From a virus: 42,177 nucleotides of DNA. A program made the translations under genes and the position numbers. Location of the stretch: the UHGV virus genome UHGV-0135963, one strand, 5' to 3'. The notes beneath the pieces were generated by a model that did not search any database, was not told the DNA's origin, and saw only the letters and a list, made by a program, of their open reading frames with translations. This document shows, piece after piece, positions 34,336-38,924 of the stretch (the first letter of the stretch is position 1; every line of letters begins with the position of its first letter).

Positions 34336-36494
34336 TGGCTAAAGCATGGAAAGATGTTATCGCTTCTCCACAGTATCAGGCGTTAACTGAAGAACAGAAA
34401 GCACAGGCTCAAGCGCAATATTTTGATGAGGTTGTTGCCCCTAAGGCTGGTGACAAATGGGCTGAAGCAAGAGATCAGTTTTATGCAGCATACCCTCCGC
34501 CTCAGCAGCAGAAAGAAGAACCATCATTGATGCAACAAGCTGGTGATTGGCTCACAGGTGGTCAAAGTGCAGGGCAAATTGCAGAACAGGCTGGTCGTGG
34601 TCTGGTAAACATACCATTTGACGTATTGCAGGGTGGCGCAAGTCTGATTAATGCAATCAGCCAGGGGCTTGGCGGCCCCAAGGTTTTGGATGATGTTTAT
34701 CGCCCTGTCGAGCGACCGACAGACCCTTACGCGCAAGCCGGTGAAACAATTGGTGGGTATCTCCTGCCAATTGGCACAGCGGCAAAAGCTGCTGGAGCGA
34801 CAGCAAAGCTCGCTGGAGATATCGGTTCCGCAGGAAACATGATTGCAGGTTCTCTTGCTGATGCTGCAAATCAGGAGGGCGACTTTGCACAAAATGCTGC
34901 CATTAACGGTGGTATCAATATTGGTGCTCAAGGCGTTCTTTCAGGTGTCGGGCGCGTTATTGCGCCAAGGGTTTCACAGGCTCTTGGTGGTGCAGCACTG
35001 AATTCTGCTAATGATGTTTCCAGGATGGCAAAGTCAGGTGCTGGGCGTCAGTCAATTGCCAGTCAGGCCGCTAATGTGTCCGAAGATGTAGCAAAAGCGG
35101 CTGAGTCTGCTGGAATTGATATAAACGCATTAACACCAGGAATGCGATCTGGAAGTCGTGGAATTGCACAAGCCGAAGGCGCATTGGCATCAACACCAGG
35201 GATTGTTCAGGATGCCCATCAGGCAGCATTTAACGAAATATCATCAAAGTTAAGTCGAAACCTTGATGAATTTGGGGCCGCATCTGGAACGGCATCAGAA
35301 AAAAGTGCGGCTATAAAACAAAGGATTCTTCAAAATCTTGATCAGATGAAGGATGCTGAGCGCGCGGCATGGGATGACGTGCGGTCAACAATGCCAAATC
35401 AAAAAGCAAGAATGCTAAATGGTAATGCCGTTATTCAGGCAGAGCGATCTGCTGGCATACCGCTTACTCCTGAAATGAAACAGTTTGTTCAGGCAAACAA
35501 TCAAGGTGGAGTAACATTTGATGGCATGAAAGCATGGAGAGCGAAATTTGCTGATGCGGAGCAAAAATATAAGCGTAGCGGAGAGGCAAATGCGGCAAGG
35601 AGAGCAGGGGAAATACGCCGGGCAATTACTGATGATATGCGCACAATGGCGGAAAACGGCGGATTTCTTGATGACTGGCAAAAAGCTAATGATCTGTCTA
35701 AAGCGAGGTTATCAGCACAAGAGAGTGCAGAGTCTGTTTTCGGGCGTGATTTGGCAACAGATGCACTGATTACGAATGGAGTAAAATCCCTTCAATCATC
35801 GTCAGCTAAAGGTCTTAATGGTCCTTCTGGATTCCATTCTATGATCCGCGCGCTGCCAGAATCAGAGCGTGTTCCTGCTATATCATCAATGTTGCAAGAT
35901 GCTATCTCGCATGGTGTACGTGGTGGCAAAGCTGATGCAGCAGGAATTAACCATATCGCAGAGATACTCACTCCACAAAATGTAAAAGCCATTAGCCGAT
36001 ATTCCTCAGAGCTTGGAAGAATTGCTGATGCATATGGCACTCTTGCAAGAGCAGCAGTGAAACCTCAGCAGTATATTGAAAGAACAGGGAGAACTGCCAA
36101 TGTACTACGCGATCTGGATGCTGGTTTATCCAACGTCACATCAACAGTGTTAAATGCAATTGCCAACTCAACATCAGGTGCCATTGTTGGTGGCGCTGGA
36201 GGAGGCATTGCAGGTGCTGCCGCAGGTGCTTTAGTTGGCGCTGGGTTAAAAGGCGCTGTATCTAAAATTGCCACCACACGTAGTGGTCGGTATGCGATAG
36301 AGAAAGCAGTTCAGGAAGCAACTAAAGCAGTAAGAGCAGGCGGAAGCAAAGAAGCATTAGTGGCGGCTGAACGCAGATTTATGGCAAATAAATCTGCCGT
36401 AAAAGCGATACGTGATACAGTCGGAAACGAAGAGTTCAATCGCTTAGCGAGGGCTGGGATTGTGGCATCGCTAAGCGGAATAGCACAGGAGTAA
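34335..36494 (+). CDS. Ejection / DNA-transfer protein, P22 gp16-like
   Basis: 719 aa in the gp16 position. Gly/Ala-rich C-terminal stretch. Confidence 0.8.
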
Positions 36495-36818
36495 TTAATC
36501 ATCCATGGATGGATTGAGATTATCTCGTGTTGATGTGGCGATTTGTCCTACATTTCTAAGCCAAGATTTCAAATCCTTGATATTGTCATTGATTTCATGA
36601 ATATCTTCTTTTTTTAATCTGTTAATATTATTTTCAATAATTTCAATGGATTGCTCAATATCAGATATAGTGAATGATAGTTTGTTCTTCTCATCTTTTA
36701 TTGAGTTTTTAAGTGCTTCGTTCTCAGTCTTGAGGTCAGATATCTTTTGTTTTAAAGATGCCAGTTGGTACTGAACCACAATGAGTGCGATAGCTATCAC
36801 GATAACTGTTGTATACAC
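36495..36818 (-). CDS. Small membrane-anchored coiled-coil protein (107 aa); third gene of accessory cassette
   Basis: N-terminal TM helix (TTVIVIAIALIVVQY) followed by heptad-like coiled coil. Strongly AT-rich. Convergent with gp16. Confidence 0.55.
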   Translation of the reverse strand: MYTTVIVIAIALIVVQYQLASLKQKISDLKTENEALKNSIKDEKNKLSFTISDIEQSIEIIENNINRLKKEDIHEINDNIKDLKSWLRNVGQIATSTRDNLNPSMDD

Positions 36819-36840
36819 ACCAACCTCCTTAGTTGATATT

Positions 36841-37260
36841 TTATTTGTATGAAATCAACGAGTTAAGCTCCCTCTCATTTAGAGATTGGAATCTTTTTTC
36901 AGTTATATCAATGATGGTTGGCAATAGTTTTTTTACCTTCTCATGACCATCAGGTTTAATGATAGCAATGATCTGGATATGAATTGGATATGTGTTGTGT
37001 ACCGCAAATATCAAAAAGTTATCGCTAACTCTACGATGTATTGGCGTTGTTTTTAACCAAGGATCATCTACTCCAGGGATCCTGATGTGCGACTTGTAAA
37101 TTCCCGATAAGACGGCGTGATGGTTTCTCTCAAACCCACCAATCTTACCAAGATAAGCTGAAACGGTGCCTCTGTTTTTGTAGTTTGCAAGAGCCTTCGC
37201 AAAGTATTGTTCTAATGGTCCAGCCGCTGCATCTACAACAATGCTTATGCGGTTTTCCAT
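36841..37260 (-). CDS. YafO-like toxin-domain protein (139 aa); second gene of accessory cassette
   Basis: C-terminal region FLIFAVHNTYPIHIQIIAIIKPDGHEK resembles the YafO core (HLVYC...AWLLIAILKPEPHK) as I recall it. Needs profile search. Confidence 0.55.
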   Translation of the reverse strand: MENRISIVVDAAAGPLEQYFAKALANYKNRGTVSAYLGKIGGFERNHHAVLSGIYKSHIRIPGVDDPWLKTTPIHRRVSDNFLIFAVHNTYPIHIQIIAIIKPDGHEKVKKLLPTIIDITEKRFQSLNERELNSLISYK

Positions 37261-37844
37261 TTTGGTGCTTCCATGCCAAATCTTTTATGTGAATCTTCAA
37301 CTGATTTCTTGAATGAAGCCAACTCTTCTTCAGTGAACTCTTCAGGTTCAGCATATGATAGTGGTATGTGCTGCATTGCTAGCGTCACAAGCCCCATAGT
37401 TAGCCTTTTGTATTCTATAAAAGTATTTATTGAGTGGTTTTTCATTGTTGTAAGAGTTGACATATGGGGCTTCCACGCATCGCTGTTCTCAGCGATGAAG
37501 AAGGTATACAACAGTTTCGCGATACCATAATCAAGCTTAGATATCTGATCGCTCAACATATCTACATCGTCATGTTGAATATCAAGTGAGGAAATATCTT
37601 CTTCCGTACCATTACTTAATATGTCAATGAATGTAATGTACTTTTTGCAAACTTCCTCTACAGGTGACATAACGCAGTAGATCTTGCTAAGAGCTTCAGA
37701 AGCCTGTTTTTTAGACAAAGAGCCGCTATGACTGCGATCAAAGTCTGAAATTGAACGCTCGATAGATGTTGATATGTCAGAAAAAACGTTTTCAATTTTT
37801 CCTGGCTCTTGATTCAGGATGGCCATAACGCCTATCTCAATCAC
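37245..37844 (-). CDS. Acidic hypothetical protein (193-199 aa); first gene of accessory cassette
   Basis: No TM or recognisable motif. Start is either GTG (37844) or ATG (37826). 16-nt overlap with the downstream gene. Confidence 0.55.
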   Translation of the reverse strand: MIEIGVMAILNQEPGKIENVFSDISTSIERSISDFDRSHSGSLSKKQASEALSKIYCVMSPVEEVCKKYITFIDILSNGTEEDISSLDIQHDDVDMLSDQISKLDYGIAKLLYTFFIAENSDAWKPHMSTLTTMKNHSINTFIEYKRLTMGLVTLAMQHIPLSYAEPEEFTEEELASFKKSVEDSHKRFGMEAPKWKTA

Positions 37845-37886
37845 AATGTATACCTTGTTATTTTATATCAACGAACAAACATTGAC

Positions 37887-38135
37887 CTATCTGGTCTCGT
37901 ACATTTTTTTCAGGGTTTCAAACACCATCTTCTTAACAATTTCTGCTTGCTGATCAGCCATGCGTTCTGCTTCGTCGCGGTAACCTGCAATCGGCGATGG
38001 CTTTGAGAGAGCATCCTGAACGATTTGTAATAACTCAGAGTTCATTGACCTTCCGTTAGCCTCGGCTCTTAATTTCAATTTTTCTCTTACTTCCAAAGGC
38101 ATACGGAAGTTAAAGTGCGGCTCATCTCTAGCCAT
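37887..38135 (-). CDS. mnt: Mnt repressor (ribbon-helix-helix)
   Basis: 82 aa MARDEPHFNFRMPLEVREKLKLRAEANGRSMNSELLQIVQDALSKPSP... is near-identical to P22 Mnt as recalled. Confidence 0.85.
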   Translation of the reverse strand: MARDEPHFNFRMPLEVREKLKLRAEANGRSMNSELLQIVQDALSKPSPIAGYRDEAERMADQQAEIVKKMVFETLKKMYETR

Positions 38136-38158
38136 GCCATCACTCCAAGTTAGTATCT

Positions 38159-38443
38159 CTAACTTTCGTCTTTATTGTTGCCATACATGCATTTCAATTT
38201 CTCAACATCATGTTCAAGATCTATCAATCGTGATGCTATAGTTGCAAGGTCTAGTGCTTGAATGTGTTTATTTTTTTCGGTCCATGCTTCAAGTGCCGCG
38301 ACCATCTCAGCATTTAATGAACGAGAATTAGCCTCAGCCAGTTCAATAAGACGTTCCTTTATCTCTACAGGAAGCCTCAGATTCACTTGAGGGTTTTTGT
38401 ACTTACGATCAGACATCGGCACATCCTGAATAATTTTTACCAC
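38159..38443 (-). CDS. Second Mnt-like ribbon-helix-helix repressor
   Basis: 94 aa. RHH core PQVNLRLPVEIKERLIELAEANSRSLNAEMVAALEAW with C-terminal coiled coil. 23 bp upstream of mnt. Confidence 0.7.
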   Translation of the reverse strand: MVKIIQDVPMSDRKYKNPQVNLRLPVEIKERLIELAEANSRSLNAEMVAALEAWTEKNKHIQALDLATIASRLIDLEHDVEKLKCMYGNNKDES

Positions 38444-38520: not shown

Positions 38521-38661
38521 ATGAAGGTAAAAACACTGCGTATGCCAGAGAAGCTAGAAAAAATTCTTGAAGAAAAAGCAAAGGAAGAGTGTCGCTCATT
38601 CAGCGCAGAAGTAATTAAACGGGTGCTGGACAGCCTGAAGAGGGAGGGGGTAACGGTATGA
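38521..38661 (+). CDS. arc: Arc-like ribbon-helix-helix repressor (46 aa)
   Basis: Hand-translated MKVKTLRMPEKLEKILEEKAKEECRSFSAEVIKRVLDSLKREGVTV. RHH pattern comparable to P22 Arc. Position upstream of ant. Confidence 0.6.
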   Translation: MKVKTLRMPEKLEKILEEKAKEECRSFSAEVIKRVLDSLKREGVTV

Positions 38662-38861
38662 GTAAAGAATGTTGTTTCTGCGGCATTAGCGAATCAGACG
38701 CTGATCAAACATACATTTACTCTAAAGAAACAGGTCGGATGCTGTGTAGTGACTGCGTGTTGGACATCATAAGATACAAGCATCTTGGATGTTCTGCCAG
38801 CATTAGCAATATAGGTGAAGTATATGAAGGGAAAGATATAACTGATAGAGCAGAAAGTTGA
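38658..38861 (+). CDS. Small Cys-rich protein (67 aa, CxxC...CxxC zinc-ribbon-like)
   Basis: CCFCG...CSDC motifs. Start overlaps arc stop (ATGA). Confidence 0.45.
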   Translation: MSKECCFCGISESDADQTYIYSKETGRMLCSDCVLDIIRYKHLGCSASISNIGEVYEGKDITDRAES

Positions 38862-38924
38862 AGCCCCAACTGCGGCAACAGTCAGGGCTTCGGTATCGTA
38901 AAACCACGCATAGGAATTAACGAC

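What the first reader, a model, noticed from the sequence alone, without database searches (positions are those of the whole stretch)
36495..37844. AT-rich three-gene cassette with a YafO-like toxin domain at the P22 superinfection-exclusion position
Between the last ejection gene (gp16-like, ends 36494) and mnt (37887) lies a minus-strand operon of three genes: an acidic 193-199 aa protein, a 139-aa protein whose C-terminal half resembles the YafO toxin core (IAIIKPDGH versus YafO IAILKPEPH), and a 107-aa protein with one N-terminal TM helix and a long coiled coil. The genes overlap or nearly abut (16-nt overlap, 22-nt gap), are much more AT-rich than the flanking structural genes, and sit 42 nt downstream of mnt in the same orientation, so they could be co-transcribed from the mnt promoter in the lysogen. 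In P22 this slot holds sieA; here the content is different. A toxin-like domain flanked by a non-canonical acidic partner and a membrane coiled-coil protein is not a standard yafNO pair, so this may be an uncharacterised abortive-infection or exclusion module.
Basis: partly seen in the sequence, partly recalled or inferred. Interest (0 to 1): 0.82.

Follow-up and report, generated by a model that had tools for sequence, protein, structure and literature searches.

The report
Prophage YafO toxin with new antitoxin
This stretch of a CUS-3-like E. coli prophage holds a two-gene toxin-antitoxin-type pair (a YafO-family RNase toxin plus an undescribed helical partner) placed just after the phage's maintenance repressor, and next to it an unrelated small membrane gene (hkcB); it is a modest new variant of a well-known kind of module, not a new three-gene system.

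Summary
Three minus-strand ORFs sit at the stated coordinates, with the stated 16-nt overlap and 22-nt and 42-nt gaps. They are AT-rich (32-39% GC against 47%).

Gene B is a true Pfam YafO_toxin member (45.3 bits, cutoff 25), and RefSeq already names it so.

The "three-gene cassette" is really two independent units:
- **hkcB (gene C)** always abuts gene 16. 22 related phage loci carry it without A-B.
- **A-B** always travels as an overlapping pair. It occurs without hkcB in other P22-like phages and as a stand-alone insert among housekeeping genes in Pectobacterium and Xenorhabdus. Distant pairs sit directly behind a CI-type repressor, the rexAB position.

A is acidic (pI 4.9), helical, and has no Pfam, NCBIfam or PADLOC match. 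Its family is tiny (18 representatives in 1.84 billion proteins). Its roughly 35-residue C-terminal tail comes in two types, and tail type predicted the partner in every case looked up: YafO, or a second unnamed family (phrog_5954).

Best reading: a type II toxin-antitoxin pair with a new modular antitoxin, expressed in the lysogen. Toxicity, neutralisation and any anti-phage role are untested. This is a new variant of a known kind, of moderate interest.

The parts
37245..37844 (-). Gene A: 199-aa acidic all-helical protein, the proposed antitoxin. It belongs to an undescribed family (phrog_18235).
37248..37352 (-). C-terminal tail of A (residues ~165-199: low-confidence linker, helix 172-188, then ...GMEAPKW). 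Proposed toxin-neutralising segment.
   Evidence: Tail type co-varies with partner family in every case looked up. The tail is 64% identical to P0035 while the N-domain is 14%. A low-pLDDT linker at 161-170 separates it from the bundle.
36841..37260 (-). Gene B: 139-aa basic YafO-family (PF13957, BECR/RelE-ParE superfamily) putative mRNA endoribonuclease toxin.
   Evidence: Pfam 45.3 bits against cutoff 25. hhalign to K-12 YafO E 4.5e-5 over 84 columns. Residues invariant with K-12 YafO: F43 E44 R45 H58 P67 R77 D80 L83 I98 P103 H106. pI 9.6. RefSeq name. dN/dS 0.07-0.12.
37245..37260 (-). 16-nt A/B overlap. B's ATG lies inside A's ...AAA-TGG... codons, an arrangement that suggests translational coupling.
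   Evidence: The same 16-nt overlap is kept in Pectobacterium and Xenorhabdus. Overlaps of 1-17 nt or a short gap occur in distant pairs.
37862..37870 (-). TGaTATAAA extended -10-like element, 17 nt upstream of the A start. Possible own promoter of A-B (inference only).
   Evidence: Read from the sequence. Similar TGnTATAA(A/T) or TATAAT elements sit just upstream of the A ribosome-binding site in L017, L009 and L043. The consensus scan, which requires a -35 hexamer, did not report it.
37887..38135 (-). mnt (Arc + Repressor_Mnt domains), the lysogen-expressed maintenance repressor immediately upstream of A. Probable source of read-through transcription.
   Evidence: Pfam Arc 94.6 bits and Repressor_Mnt 56.3 bits. 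mnt at 98% identity always accompanies A-B in L011-L016. No terminator between mnt and A.
38159..38416 (-). Second Arc-family repressor gene, first gene of the leftward operon. The ORF runs to the GTG at 38443, but the start used is probably the ATG at 38416, as annotated in CUS-3.
   Evidence: Pfam Arc 39.8 bits. CUS-3 annotation. Promoter-like site 38472-38444 on the minus strand.
36495..36818 (-). hkcB (gene C): 107-aa single-TM, coiled-coil protein. This is a separate module linked to gene 16 and occupies the position of P22 sieA. It is not part of the A-B unit.
   Evidence: Annotated hkcB in CUS-3, HK620 and epsilon34. Always <=6 nt from gene 16 and present in 22 loci without A-B. Homology to epsilon34 and SEN22 ends 16 nt upstream of its start. 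Strong AAGGAGG ribosome-binding site. phrog_5962, function unknown. No similarity to SieA.

Best explanation
Genes A and B form a self-contained, mobile type II toxin-antitoxin-type pair. B is a YafO-family (BECR-fold, RelE/ParE superfamily) mRNA endoribonuclease. A is a new kind of antitoxin: an N-terminal helical bundle plus a C-terminal helix and tail of about 35 residues that binds and neutralises B. The pair is translationally coupled through a 16-nt overlap. In this prophage it is expressed in the lysogen, by read-through from the arc-like/mnt operon and possibly from its own extended -10 promoter.

If A is lost or titrated, free B would cleave mRNA and stop translation. That could happen on loss of the prophage, or when an infecting phage shuts off host transcription or triggers A's degradation. 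The outcome would be prophage addiction, abortive infection, or both.

hkcB is an independent neighbour tied to ejection gene 16. It is not a third subunit.

Shown here: family membership of B, conservation and mobility of the pair, independence from hkcB, co-variation of A's tail with partner type, and placement behind repressors. Inferred: toxicity, neutralisation by the tail, the trigger, and the defence role.
For: - B passes the Pfam YafO_toxin gathering score with near full-length coverage and aligns to K-12 YafO with conserved polar residues. PF_YafO is one of the 13 BECR-fold mRNase toxin families and has antitoxin-then-toxin gene order (PMC11980606).
- A/B charge complementarity: pI 4.9 and 9.6.
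- The pair is kept with the same 16-nt overlap as a stand-alone insert between housekeeping genes in Pectobacterium fontis and three Xenorhabdus genomes.
- A-B is present and intact in 44 of 5426 complete E. coli genomes, never one gene without the other.
- Strong purifying selection on both genes.
- A-B assorts independently of hkcB.
- Distant A homologs (N-domain 14-21% identical) still precede a YafO gene.
- Tail type predicted partner family in 4 of 4 type-II cases, and every type-I case looked up pairs with YafO. The N-domain and tail have discordant similarity patterns.
- Placement directly downstream of lysogeny repressors: mnt here and in L009 and L017; CI-type repressors in L041 and L043, with a terminator right after the YafO gene in L043.
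- The same slot in SEN22 holds a HicA/HicB-type TA pair.
Against: - There is no experimental evidence that B is toxic or that A neutralises it.
- B's fold could not be checked: the model reached only pLDDT 41 and no YafO-family structure is solved.
- A has no recognisable DNA-binding domain, so classic autoregulation is not evident. At 199 aa it is large for an antitoxin. Its fold matches are generic.
- A and B have no hit in PADLOC.
- The tail co-variation rests on about 14 sequences and 28-35 aligned positions, and the N-domain alignments are at low identity.
- No complex prediction could be run.
- Co-transcription with mnt is inferred only from the absence of a predicted terminator.
Confidence: 0.65

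Rival explanations
1. One reading: A, B and hkcB form one tripartite abortive-infection or exclusion system, in which the membrane coiled-coil protein acts as sensor or effector together with the toxin pair.
For: All three genes are co-oriented with 22 nt or less between them and no predicted terminator. The three-gene block is conserved at 99% in 36 E. coli genomes.
Against: hkcB occurs without A-B in 22 related loci. A-B occurs with a 48-50% identical hkcB allele (L013-L016), with an unrelated 140-aa gene (L011, L012), with nothing (L017), or outside phages entirely. The homology break lies between the B stop and the hkcB ribosome-binding site. hkcB has its own strong ribosome-binding site.
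Confidence: 0.07
2. A-B is a real toxin-antitoxin pair but acts purely as an addiction or selfish-stabilisation module, or has no benefit to the host at all, with no anti-phage role.
For: Stand-alone chromosomal copies sit among core genes with no defence-island neighbours. There are no PADLOC hits. K-12 yafNO is stress- and SOS-linked rather than defence-linked (PMC7781912).
Against: The pair is repeatedly placed in lysogen-expressed moron positions behind mnt or CI, like rexAB, and in a slot that elsewhere carries sieA or hicAB. That pattern is typical of prophage-encoded defence, though it is also compatible with addiction.
Confidence: 0.25
3. A is not an antitoxin. It could be a chaperone or adaptor, or an enzyme or sensor, and B could be a domesticated non-toxic RNase that tunes phage or host gene expression, for example immI/ant control or the level of late transcripts reaching the tailspike gene.
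Against: The pair also occurs outside phages, where there is no immI to regulate. The fold matches are generic helical bundles. Gene order, overlap, charge pattern and obligate co-occurrence are the classic toxin-antitoxin signature. The ERSISDFDRSH motif is absent from several YafO-paired members.
Confidence: 0.1
4. The three proteins are virion, ejection or assembly accessories, given that they sit inside the late gene cluster next to gene 16.
For: Position between ejection gene 16 and the tailspike. Some A-partner pairs lie among tail genes (L042, L055, L009).
Against: They are on the opposite strand to the late operon and AT-rich. The slot is absent or replaced in many P22-like phages with identical structural genes (PMC2629481). 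A-B is present in non-phage chromosomal sites. B belongs to a toxin family.
Confidence: 0.02

Closest known systems
E. coli K-12 yafN-yafO type II toxin-antitoxin system (dinB operon)
   Same: The toxin belongs to the same Pfam family, PF13957, with the conserved ...FER..., AHI and IAI(I/L)KPxxH core. The gene order is antitoxin then toxin. The toxin is small and basic.
   Different: B is only about 19-23% identical to YafO and scores far below the NCBIfam equivalog cutoff (14 bits against 153). The partner is a 199-aa helical protein with no similarity to the 97-aa YafN. There is no dinB/yafP or SOS operon context. Here the pair is prophage-borne behind mnt.
Partner-swapping type II TA networks (NetFlax / PanA-type promiscuous antitoxin domains; PMC10440598)
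   Same: One antitoxin-like family is paired with two unrelated toxin-sized families, and the part that contacts the toxin changes with the partner.
   Different: A has no match to any described antitoxin domain in Pfam, including DUF4065/PanA. Here the exchanged element appears to be a short C-terminal tail on a conserved helical bundle. The family is very small.
Lambda cI-rexA-rexB (lysogen-expressed abortive-infection operon downstream of the repressor)
   Same: A two-gene accessory operon sits immediately downstream of, and co-oriented with, the prophage repressor and ends in a terminator (L043, L041). Here it follows mnt.
   Different: No Pfam family, RexA/RexB included, matched A or B. 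The proposed effector is an RNase rather than a membrane channel. The defence phenotype is untested.
P22 SieA superinfection exclusion protein (PMC10883804)
   Same: hkcB occupies the same genomic position, abutting gene 16 in convergent orientation, and is membrane-anchored.
   Different: hkcB shows no sequence similarity to SieA. It has a single TM plus coiled coil, whereas SieA has several predicted transmembrane helices (PMC10883804). It lacks the FxRYPxEAxxFNK motif. Its function is unknown. CUS-3 itself is fully excluded by P22 SieA and has no sieA.
The 'ant moron' of P22-like phages (Villafane et al. 2008, PMC2629481)
   Same: This is that region. The paper lists CUS-3, UTI-1 and APEC-1 as one six-gene type and notes rapid gene flux, which the present locus survey reproduces.
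   Different: The paper assigned no function to these genes. The TA-type identity of A-B and its independence from hkcB are additions made here.

Membership tests
Pfam PF13957 YafO_toxin (BECR-fold RelE/ParE superfamily) | Profile score above the curated gathering threshold with near full-length domain coverage | tested here: met
   45.3 bits against 25, E 1e-11, profile positions 2-98 of 101.
Pfam PF13957 YafO_toxin (BECR-fold RelE/ParE superfamily) | Conserved core residues shared with the characterised E. coli YafO | tested here: met
   hhalign E 4.5e-5 over 84 columns. F43 E44 R45 H58 P67 R77 D80 L83 I98 P103 H106 are invariant, including in K-12 YafO.
Pfam PF13957 YafO_toxin (BECR-fold RelE/ParE superfamily) | BECR (RelE-like) three-dimensional fold | tested here: inconclusive
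   The AF2 model from 8 sequences reached only pLDDT 41.5. No solved YafO-family structure exists to compare by sequence.
Pfam PF13957 YafO_toxin (BECR-fold RelE/ParE superfamily) | mRNA endoribonuclease activity and growth inhibition | not testable with these tools
   Requires expression and cleavage assays.
YafO proper (NCBIfam NF007377 equivalog) / yafNO system | Equivalog-level similarity to K-12 YafO | tested here: not met
   14.2 bits against a cutoff of 153. 19% identity by BLASTP.
YafO proper (NCBIfam NF007377 equivalog) / yafNO system | Cognate antitoxin of the YafN type | tested here: not met
   No alignment between A and YafN at E<=100. A has no Pfam antitoxin domain.
YafO proper (NCBIfam NF007377 equivalog) / yafNO system | dinB-yafN-yafO-yafP operon context | tested here: not met
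   The K-12 locus against the prophage immI context here.
Type II toxin-antitoxin module (generic) | Two small co-oriented genes, overlapping or nearly abutting, antitoxin first, conserved and mobile as a unit | tested here: met
   16-nt overlap here and in Pectobacterium and Xenorhabdus. The pair is found in at least five unrelated context types. There are no orphan copies in 44 E. coli genomes.
Type II toxin-antitoxin module (generic) | Acidic antitoxin and basic toxin | tested here: met
   pI 4.9 and 9.6.
Type II toxin-antitoxin module (generic) | Antitoxin binds and neutralises the toxin; antitoxin is proteolytically labile | not testable with these tools
   Only indirect support: A's C-terminal tail co-varies with partner family.
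Type II toxin-antitoxin module (generic) | Antitoxin carries a DNA-binding domain for autoregulation | tested here: inconclusive
P22 SieA superinfection exclusion | Homology to SieA types A-C, including the FxRYPxEAxxFNK motif | tested here: not met
   hkcB against P22 SieA gives no significant alignment. The motif is absent from the A, B and C translations.
P22 SieA superinfection exclusion | Gene abutting gene 16 in convergent orientation, inner-membrane protein | tested here: met
   Position is met by hkcB only. hkcB has one predicted TM helix, whereas SieA has several predicted transmembrane helices (PMC10883804).
Catalogued anti-phage defence systems (PADLOC-DB v2.0.0) | Profile match to a component of a known or candidate defence system | tested here: not met
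   A and B have 0 families at E<=1. C gives only low-scoring coiled-coil matches to SMC-like proteins.
Lambda RexAB-type lysogen-expressed abortive infection | Two-gene operon immediately downstream of the prophage repressor | tested here: met
   Behind mnt here and in L009 and L017. Behind CI-type repressors in L041 and L043, with a terminator after the pair in L043.
Lambda RexAB-type lysogen-expressed abortive infection | Homology to RexA/RexB | tested here: not met
   The Pfam scan of A and B returned only YafO_toxin, for B.

The most novel reading that the evidence does not exclude
The A family is a modular sensor-antitoxin scaffold that defines a small, undescribed class of lysogen-expressed, Rex-like abortive-infection modules. 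A conserved helical bundle would sense an infecting phage, possibly through the ERSISDFDRSH / W-P-H patch. An exchangeable C-terminal tail would hold either of two toxins in check: YafO-type RNases, or the uncharacterised phrog_5954 family, which would then be a new toxin family.
Probability: 0.2. Interest if true: 0.65.

Novelty: new variant of a known kind. Interest (0 to 1): 0.42.

Why it matters
If the model is confirmed, it would add a new antitoxin family. That family shows clear evidence of exchange of its proposed toxin-binding tail, and it points to a candidate new toxin family (phrog_5954).

It would also assign a function to part of the long-unexplained "ant moron" of P22-like phages. 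This module is carried by about 0.8% of complete E. coli genomes, including neonatal-meningitis, uropathogenic and avian-pathogenic strains (RS218/CUS-3, UTI89, IHE3034, APEC O18).

The pair's recurrent placement directly behind prophage repressors (mnt or CI) makes it a tractable test of whether YafO-type RNases act in prophage-mediated defence or in prophage retention.

Separating hkcB from A-B also singles out hkcB as the actual sieA-position gene, and therefore as the candidate to test for exclusion.

Tried and rejected
- **Structure of B:** the AF2 model from 8 homologs gave pLDDT 41.5, which is unusable, so no fold search was run on it. Both prediction jobs were then spent, so no deeper-alignment retry or complex prediction was possible.
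- **Sequence searches against the PDB** for A, B, the YafO alignment and the phrog_5954 alignment found nothing meaningful.
- **Is the phrog_5954 partner a cryptic YafO?** hhalign with the B alignment and with the wider YafO alignment was negative. Pfam and NCBIfam were negative too. I noticed a loose H-x-H / V-H-Y / ...H-P-P pattern reminiscent of RelE-like toxins, but I treat that as unsupported.
- **Truncated A (P0024) with intact B?** This falsification test failed because the record was not retrievable. I replaced it with a survey of complete E. coli genomes, which showed only intact pairs.
- **PADLOC** gave no hits for A or B.
- **HEPN-like reading of A's R...H motif:** rejected. The spacing is Rx8H or RxH, not Rx4-6H, and the motif sits at the end of helix 1.
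- **TAC (toxin-antitoxin-chaperone) reading with hkcB or A as chaperone:** rejected. Nothing is SecB-like, and hkcB assorts independently.
- **RNA antitoxin or repeats in the A-B region:** none. The only Rfam hit above threshold is sar, outside the region.
- **The search for related loci with the widest YafO alignment** failed because no conserved stretch was available. A narrower alignment added only one new locus.
- **Literature:** searches found no characterisation of this pair or of hkcB.
Full report
**1. What is there**

The window is a CUS-3-like, P22-family (Lederbergvirus) prophage of E. coli. The region 36300-38200 is 98% identical to phage CUS-3 (CP000711). The 1350-bp finding is present at about 99% identity in 36 complete E. 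coli genomes, including UTI89, NU14, IHE3034, APEC O18 and PMV-1.

The three minus-strand ORFs are exactly as described:
- A: 37245-37844, 199 aa from GTG.
- B: 36841-37260, 139 aa.
- C: 36495-36818, 107 aa.

The 16-nt A/B overlap, the 22-nt B-C gap and the 42-nt gap after mnt are all correct. Gene 16 ends one base before the stop of C. The genes are AT-rich: 38.7%, 39.0% and 32.1% GC, against 47.0% for the window. A is acidic (pI 4.9) and B is basic (pI 9.6). C has one N-terminal hydrophobic helix followed by sequence that matches only coiled-coil models below threshold.

Orthologs of A start with ATG at the upstream position behind an AAGG(A/T)G ribosome-binding site, so the 199-aa form is the likely product. 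A and B evolve under strong purifying selection (dN/dS 0.07-0.12).

**2. Identity of the proteins**

B passes the Pfam YafO_toxin (PF13957) gathering threshold at 45.3 bits against 25, E 1e-11, covering 2-98 of 101 profile positions. A profile of B homologs aligns to K-12 YafO over 84 columns (E 4.5e-5). In a joint alignment, F43, E44, R45, H58, P67, R77, D80, L83, I98, P103 and H106 are invariant, K-12 YafO included.

B is not an ortholog of YafO proper. It is 19% identical by BLASTP, and the NCBIfam equivalog scores 14 bits against a cutoff of 153. RefSeq already names B "type II toxin-antitoxin system YafO family toxin".

According to Gerdes' 2025 survey, PF_YafO is one of 13 BECR-fold RelE/ParE-superfamily mRNase toxin families and has antitoxin-then-toxin gene order (PMC11980606). 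E. coli YafO is a ribosome-associated mRNA endonuclease (PMC7781912).

C is hkcB, as annotated in CUS-3, HK620 and epsilon34. It belongs to phrog_5962, function unknown, and has homologs only in E. coli and Salmonella.

**3. The "cassette" is two modules**

A tblastn matrix over 40 fetched loci shows two linkage groups.

- **hkcB and gene 16.** hkcB always lies 6 nt or less from gene 16 and tracks the gp16 type. It is present in 22 P22-like loci that lack A-B.
- **A-B and mnt.** In phages, A-B always follows mnt (98% identical in L011-L016). It is combined with the CUS-3/epsilon34-type hkcB (window, CUS-3), with an HK620-type hkcB only 48-50% identical (L013-L016), with an unrelated 140-aa gene (L011, L012), or with nothing (L017).

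The DNA homology to epsilon34 and SEN22 stops 16 nt upstream of the hkcB start, between the B stop and the hkcB ribosome-binding site.

Outside phages, A-B is a stand-alone insert between housekeeping genes, with the same 16-nt overlap and no hkcB. In Pectobacterium fontis it lies between an ABC-transporter operon and gcvP. In Xenorhabdus it lies between slt and an ABC-F gene, or between prfC and rimI/holD.

In E. coli, A-B is found in 44 of 5426 complete genomes. It is always full length and single copy, with both genes annotated as intact.

In P22, the gene that abuts gene 16 in convergent orientation is sieA. It is therefore hkcB, not A-B, that sits in the sieA position. hkcB has no similarity to SieA.

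**4. The slot is a cargo hotspot**

Between the immI regulators and hkcB, related phages carry a range of unrelated cargo:
- a lipoprotein (epsilon34 gp15 type);
- a HicA/HicB-type pair (SEN22);
- a Clp-protease-like protein;
- a P63C-domain protein;
- pairs of a 121-136-aa protein (Cys-rich in L023/L038) with a C-terminal-TM XhlA-like protein;
- larger inserts.

This reproduces the published description of the "ant moron" as a region in rapid flux with unknown functions. That paper lists CUS-3, UTI-1 and APEC-1 as one six-gene type (PMC2629481). The SieA paper reports that only 22 of 66 P22-like phages carry sieA, and that CUS-3 is fully excluded by P22 SieA (PMC10883804).

**5. The A family and its partners**

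An exhaustive profile search found only 18 representatives at 50% clustering among 1.84 billion proteins.

Context look-ups show that very distant A homologs still precede an overlapping or abutting YafO_toxin gene: P0035, P0037, P0038, P0039 and the L055 protein. Four others (P0025, P0030, P0027, P0036) precede a different 125-130-aa family, phrog_5954. Its members are 47-50% identical to one another, have no Pfam, NCBIfam or PDB match, and show no profile similarity to YafO.

The A alignment shows two C-terminal tail types. Type I, "...SHK+xGxxxPxW", goes with YafO. Type II, "...PEWVKSGDDFVKWI...", goes with phrog_5954. I made this prediction after seeing five cases, and it held for the four further members examined.

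The two parts of A have discordant similarity:
- Window A against P0035: 14% identical in the N-domain, 64% in the tail.
- Window A against the type-II member P0027: 36% in the N-domain, 21% in the tail.
- Group means, N-domain: window group to type II 28%, to the other type-I members 18%.
- Group means, tail: window group to type II 20%, to the other type-I members 35%.

The simplest reading is a modular protein whose C-terminal ~35 residues contact the partner. This is the arrangement usual in type II antitoxins. It is an inference from few sequences and short aligned stretches, not a demonstrated interface.

**6. Expression context**

On the minus strand the order is: promoter-like site (38472-38444), Arc-family gene, mnt, A, B, hkcB. 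Gaps are 23, 42, -16 and 22 nt, and no terminator-like site is predicted. A divergent promoter-like site on the plus strand faces a small Arc-domain ORF, a 67-aa ORF, the sar antisense RNA and ant. This is a complete P22-type immI layout.

In two lambdoid prophages the A-YafO pair lies directly downstream of a CI-type (HTH_3 + Peptidase_S24) repressor. In L043 no terminator separates cI from A, and a strong terminator follows the YafO stop. That is the cI-rexA-rexB arrangement. In L009, a different phage type, an A/phrog_5954 pair again follows mnt with a 43-nt gap.

A TGnTATAA(A/T)-type extended -10-like element sits just upstream of the A ribosome-binding site here (37862-37870) and in L017, L009 and L043. 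It may give the pair its own promoter. This is unverified.

**7. Interpretation**

The most likely explanation, at about 0.65, is that A-B is a type II toxin-antitoxin-type pair. It would combine a YafO-family RNase toxin with a new helical antitoxin that neutralises through its C-terminal tail. It would be expressed in the lysogen as a moron behind the maintenance repressor.

Whether it serves abortive infection, prophage addiction or both cannot be decided here. Its position behind repressors, in a slot that elsewhere holds sieA or hicAB, leans towards a lysogen-benefit or defence role. The stand-alone chromosomal copies and the absence of PADLOC hits are neutral or contrary.

hkcB is a separate gene of unknown function. 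Its position and membrane anchor make it the better candidate for an exclusion protein, but nothing tests that.

The tripartite model is largely refuted by independent assortment. A structural role is refuted for A-B by its non-phage occurrences.

**8. Novelty**

The YafO domain, its RefSeq annotation, the variable ant moron, and the existence of YafO_toxin hits with unknown partners in E. coli (13 partner clusters, 8% known; PMC10790755) are all on record.

New here:
- A-B is a conserved mobile pair, independent of hkcB.
- A represents an unannotated antitoxin-like family.
- A's tail switches with the partner family.
- A second candidate toxin family, phrog_5954.
- The recurrent placement of the pair behind repressors.

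This is a new variant of a known kind, of moderate interest.

**9. Limits**

- No experiment bears on toxicity, neutralisation or defence.
- B's fold prediction failed, and no complex prediction was possible.
- The co-variation rests on about 14 sequences.
- Promoter and terminator calls are consensus scans only.

Noticed in passing
window 38521-38661 (+): An unannotated 46-aa ORF just upstream of ant is a genuine Arc-domain protein (Pfam Arc 33.6 bits, cutoff 20.4). In CUS-3 this stretch is labelled only as 'bsq2 boundary sequence', and the 2008 epsilon34 paper states that CUS-3 apparently lacks arc. The immI circuit therefore looks complete.
   Followed up: partly
window 38856-38923 (-): A sar antisense RNA sits immediately upstream of the ant start (Rfam RF00262, 83.6 bits, gathering score 43), as in P22.
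   Followed up: yes
window 38658-38861 (+): A 67-aa ORF with CxxC...CxxC spacing, possibly a zinc ribbon, lies between the arc-like ORF and ant and overlaps the arc-like ORF by 4 nt. It has no Pfam match, and its function is unknown.
   Followed up: partly
window 38159-38443 (-) and 37887-38135 (-): Two tandem ribbon-helix-helix repressor genes, an Arc-family gene followed by a true Mnt, sit on the leftward strand. Both are annotated 'mnt' in CUS-3. The closest relatives that lack A-B (L023, L026, L032, L038) keep only the first one.
   Followed up: partly
L009:2065-2457, L042:2333-2716, L047:889-1266, L046:881-1123: phrog_5954 family: 125-130-aa proteins with an invariant GLPGRNK...HYH(I/V)G...WTS..VHYQ...HPP pattern. 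They are always encoded right after a type-II-tail A homolog. They have no Pfam, NCBIfam or PDB match. This is a candidate new toxin family.
   Followed up: partly
window 36495-36818 (-), compared with L036, L037, L039 and HK620 (L003): hkcB shows dN/dS of 0.5-0.9 among near-identical alleles and 0.25 against HK620, much higher than A and B. This could mean relaxed or diversifying selection, but the substitution counts are small.
   Followed up: partly
L004/L036 (phage SEN22), between the regulator gene and hkcB: The same slot carries a HicA toxin (PF07927) together with a 217-aa protein that has a DUF1902 domain. This looks like a HicB-type pair, so a second TA-type cargo occupies this hotspot.
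   Followed up: partly
L023:3286-3979, L038:3092-3785, L037/L039:3224-3980: In the closest relatives of the window, the A-B position holds a two-gene pair in the same orientation: a 121-136-aa protein (Cys-rich in L023/L038) followed by an overlapping 111-117-aa protein with a coiled coil and a C-terminal TM (XhlA/holin-like). Function unknown.
   Followed up: no
L025:1181-1717: One P22-like contig carries a 178-aa Clp-protease-family protein (PF00574, 46.7 bits) as cargo in the same slot.
   Followed up: no
L043:2290-2311: A strong intrinsic-terminator-like hairpin (8-bp stem, 6 GC pairs, T-run) directly follows the YafO stop codon. It closes a cI-A-YafO unit, analogous to lambda cI-rexAB.
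   Followed up: partly
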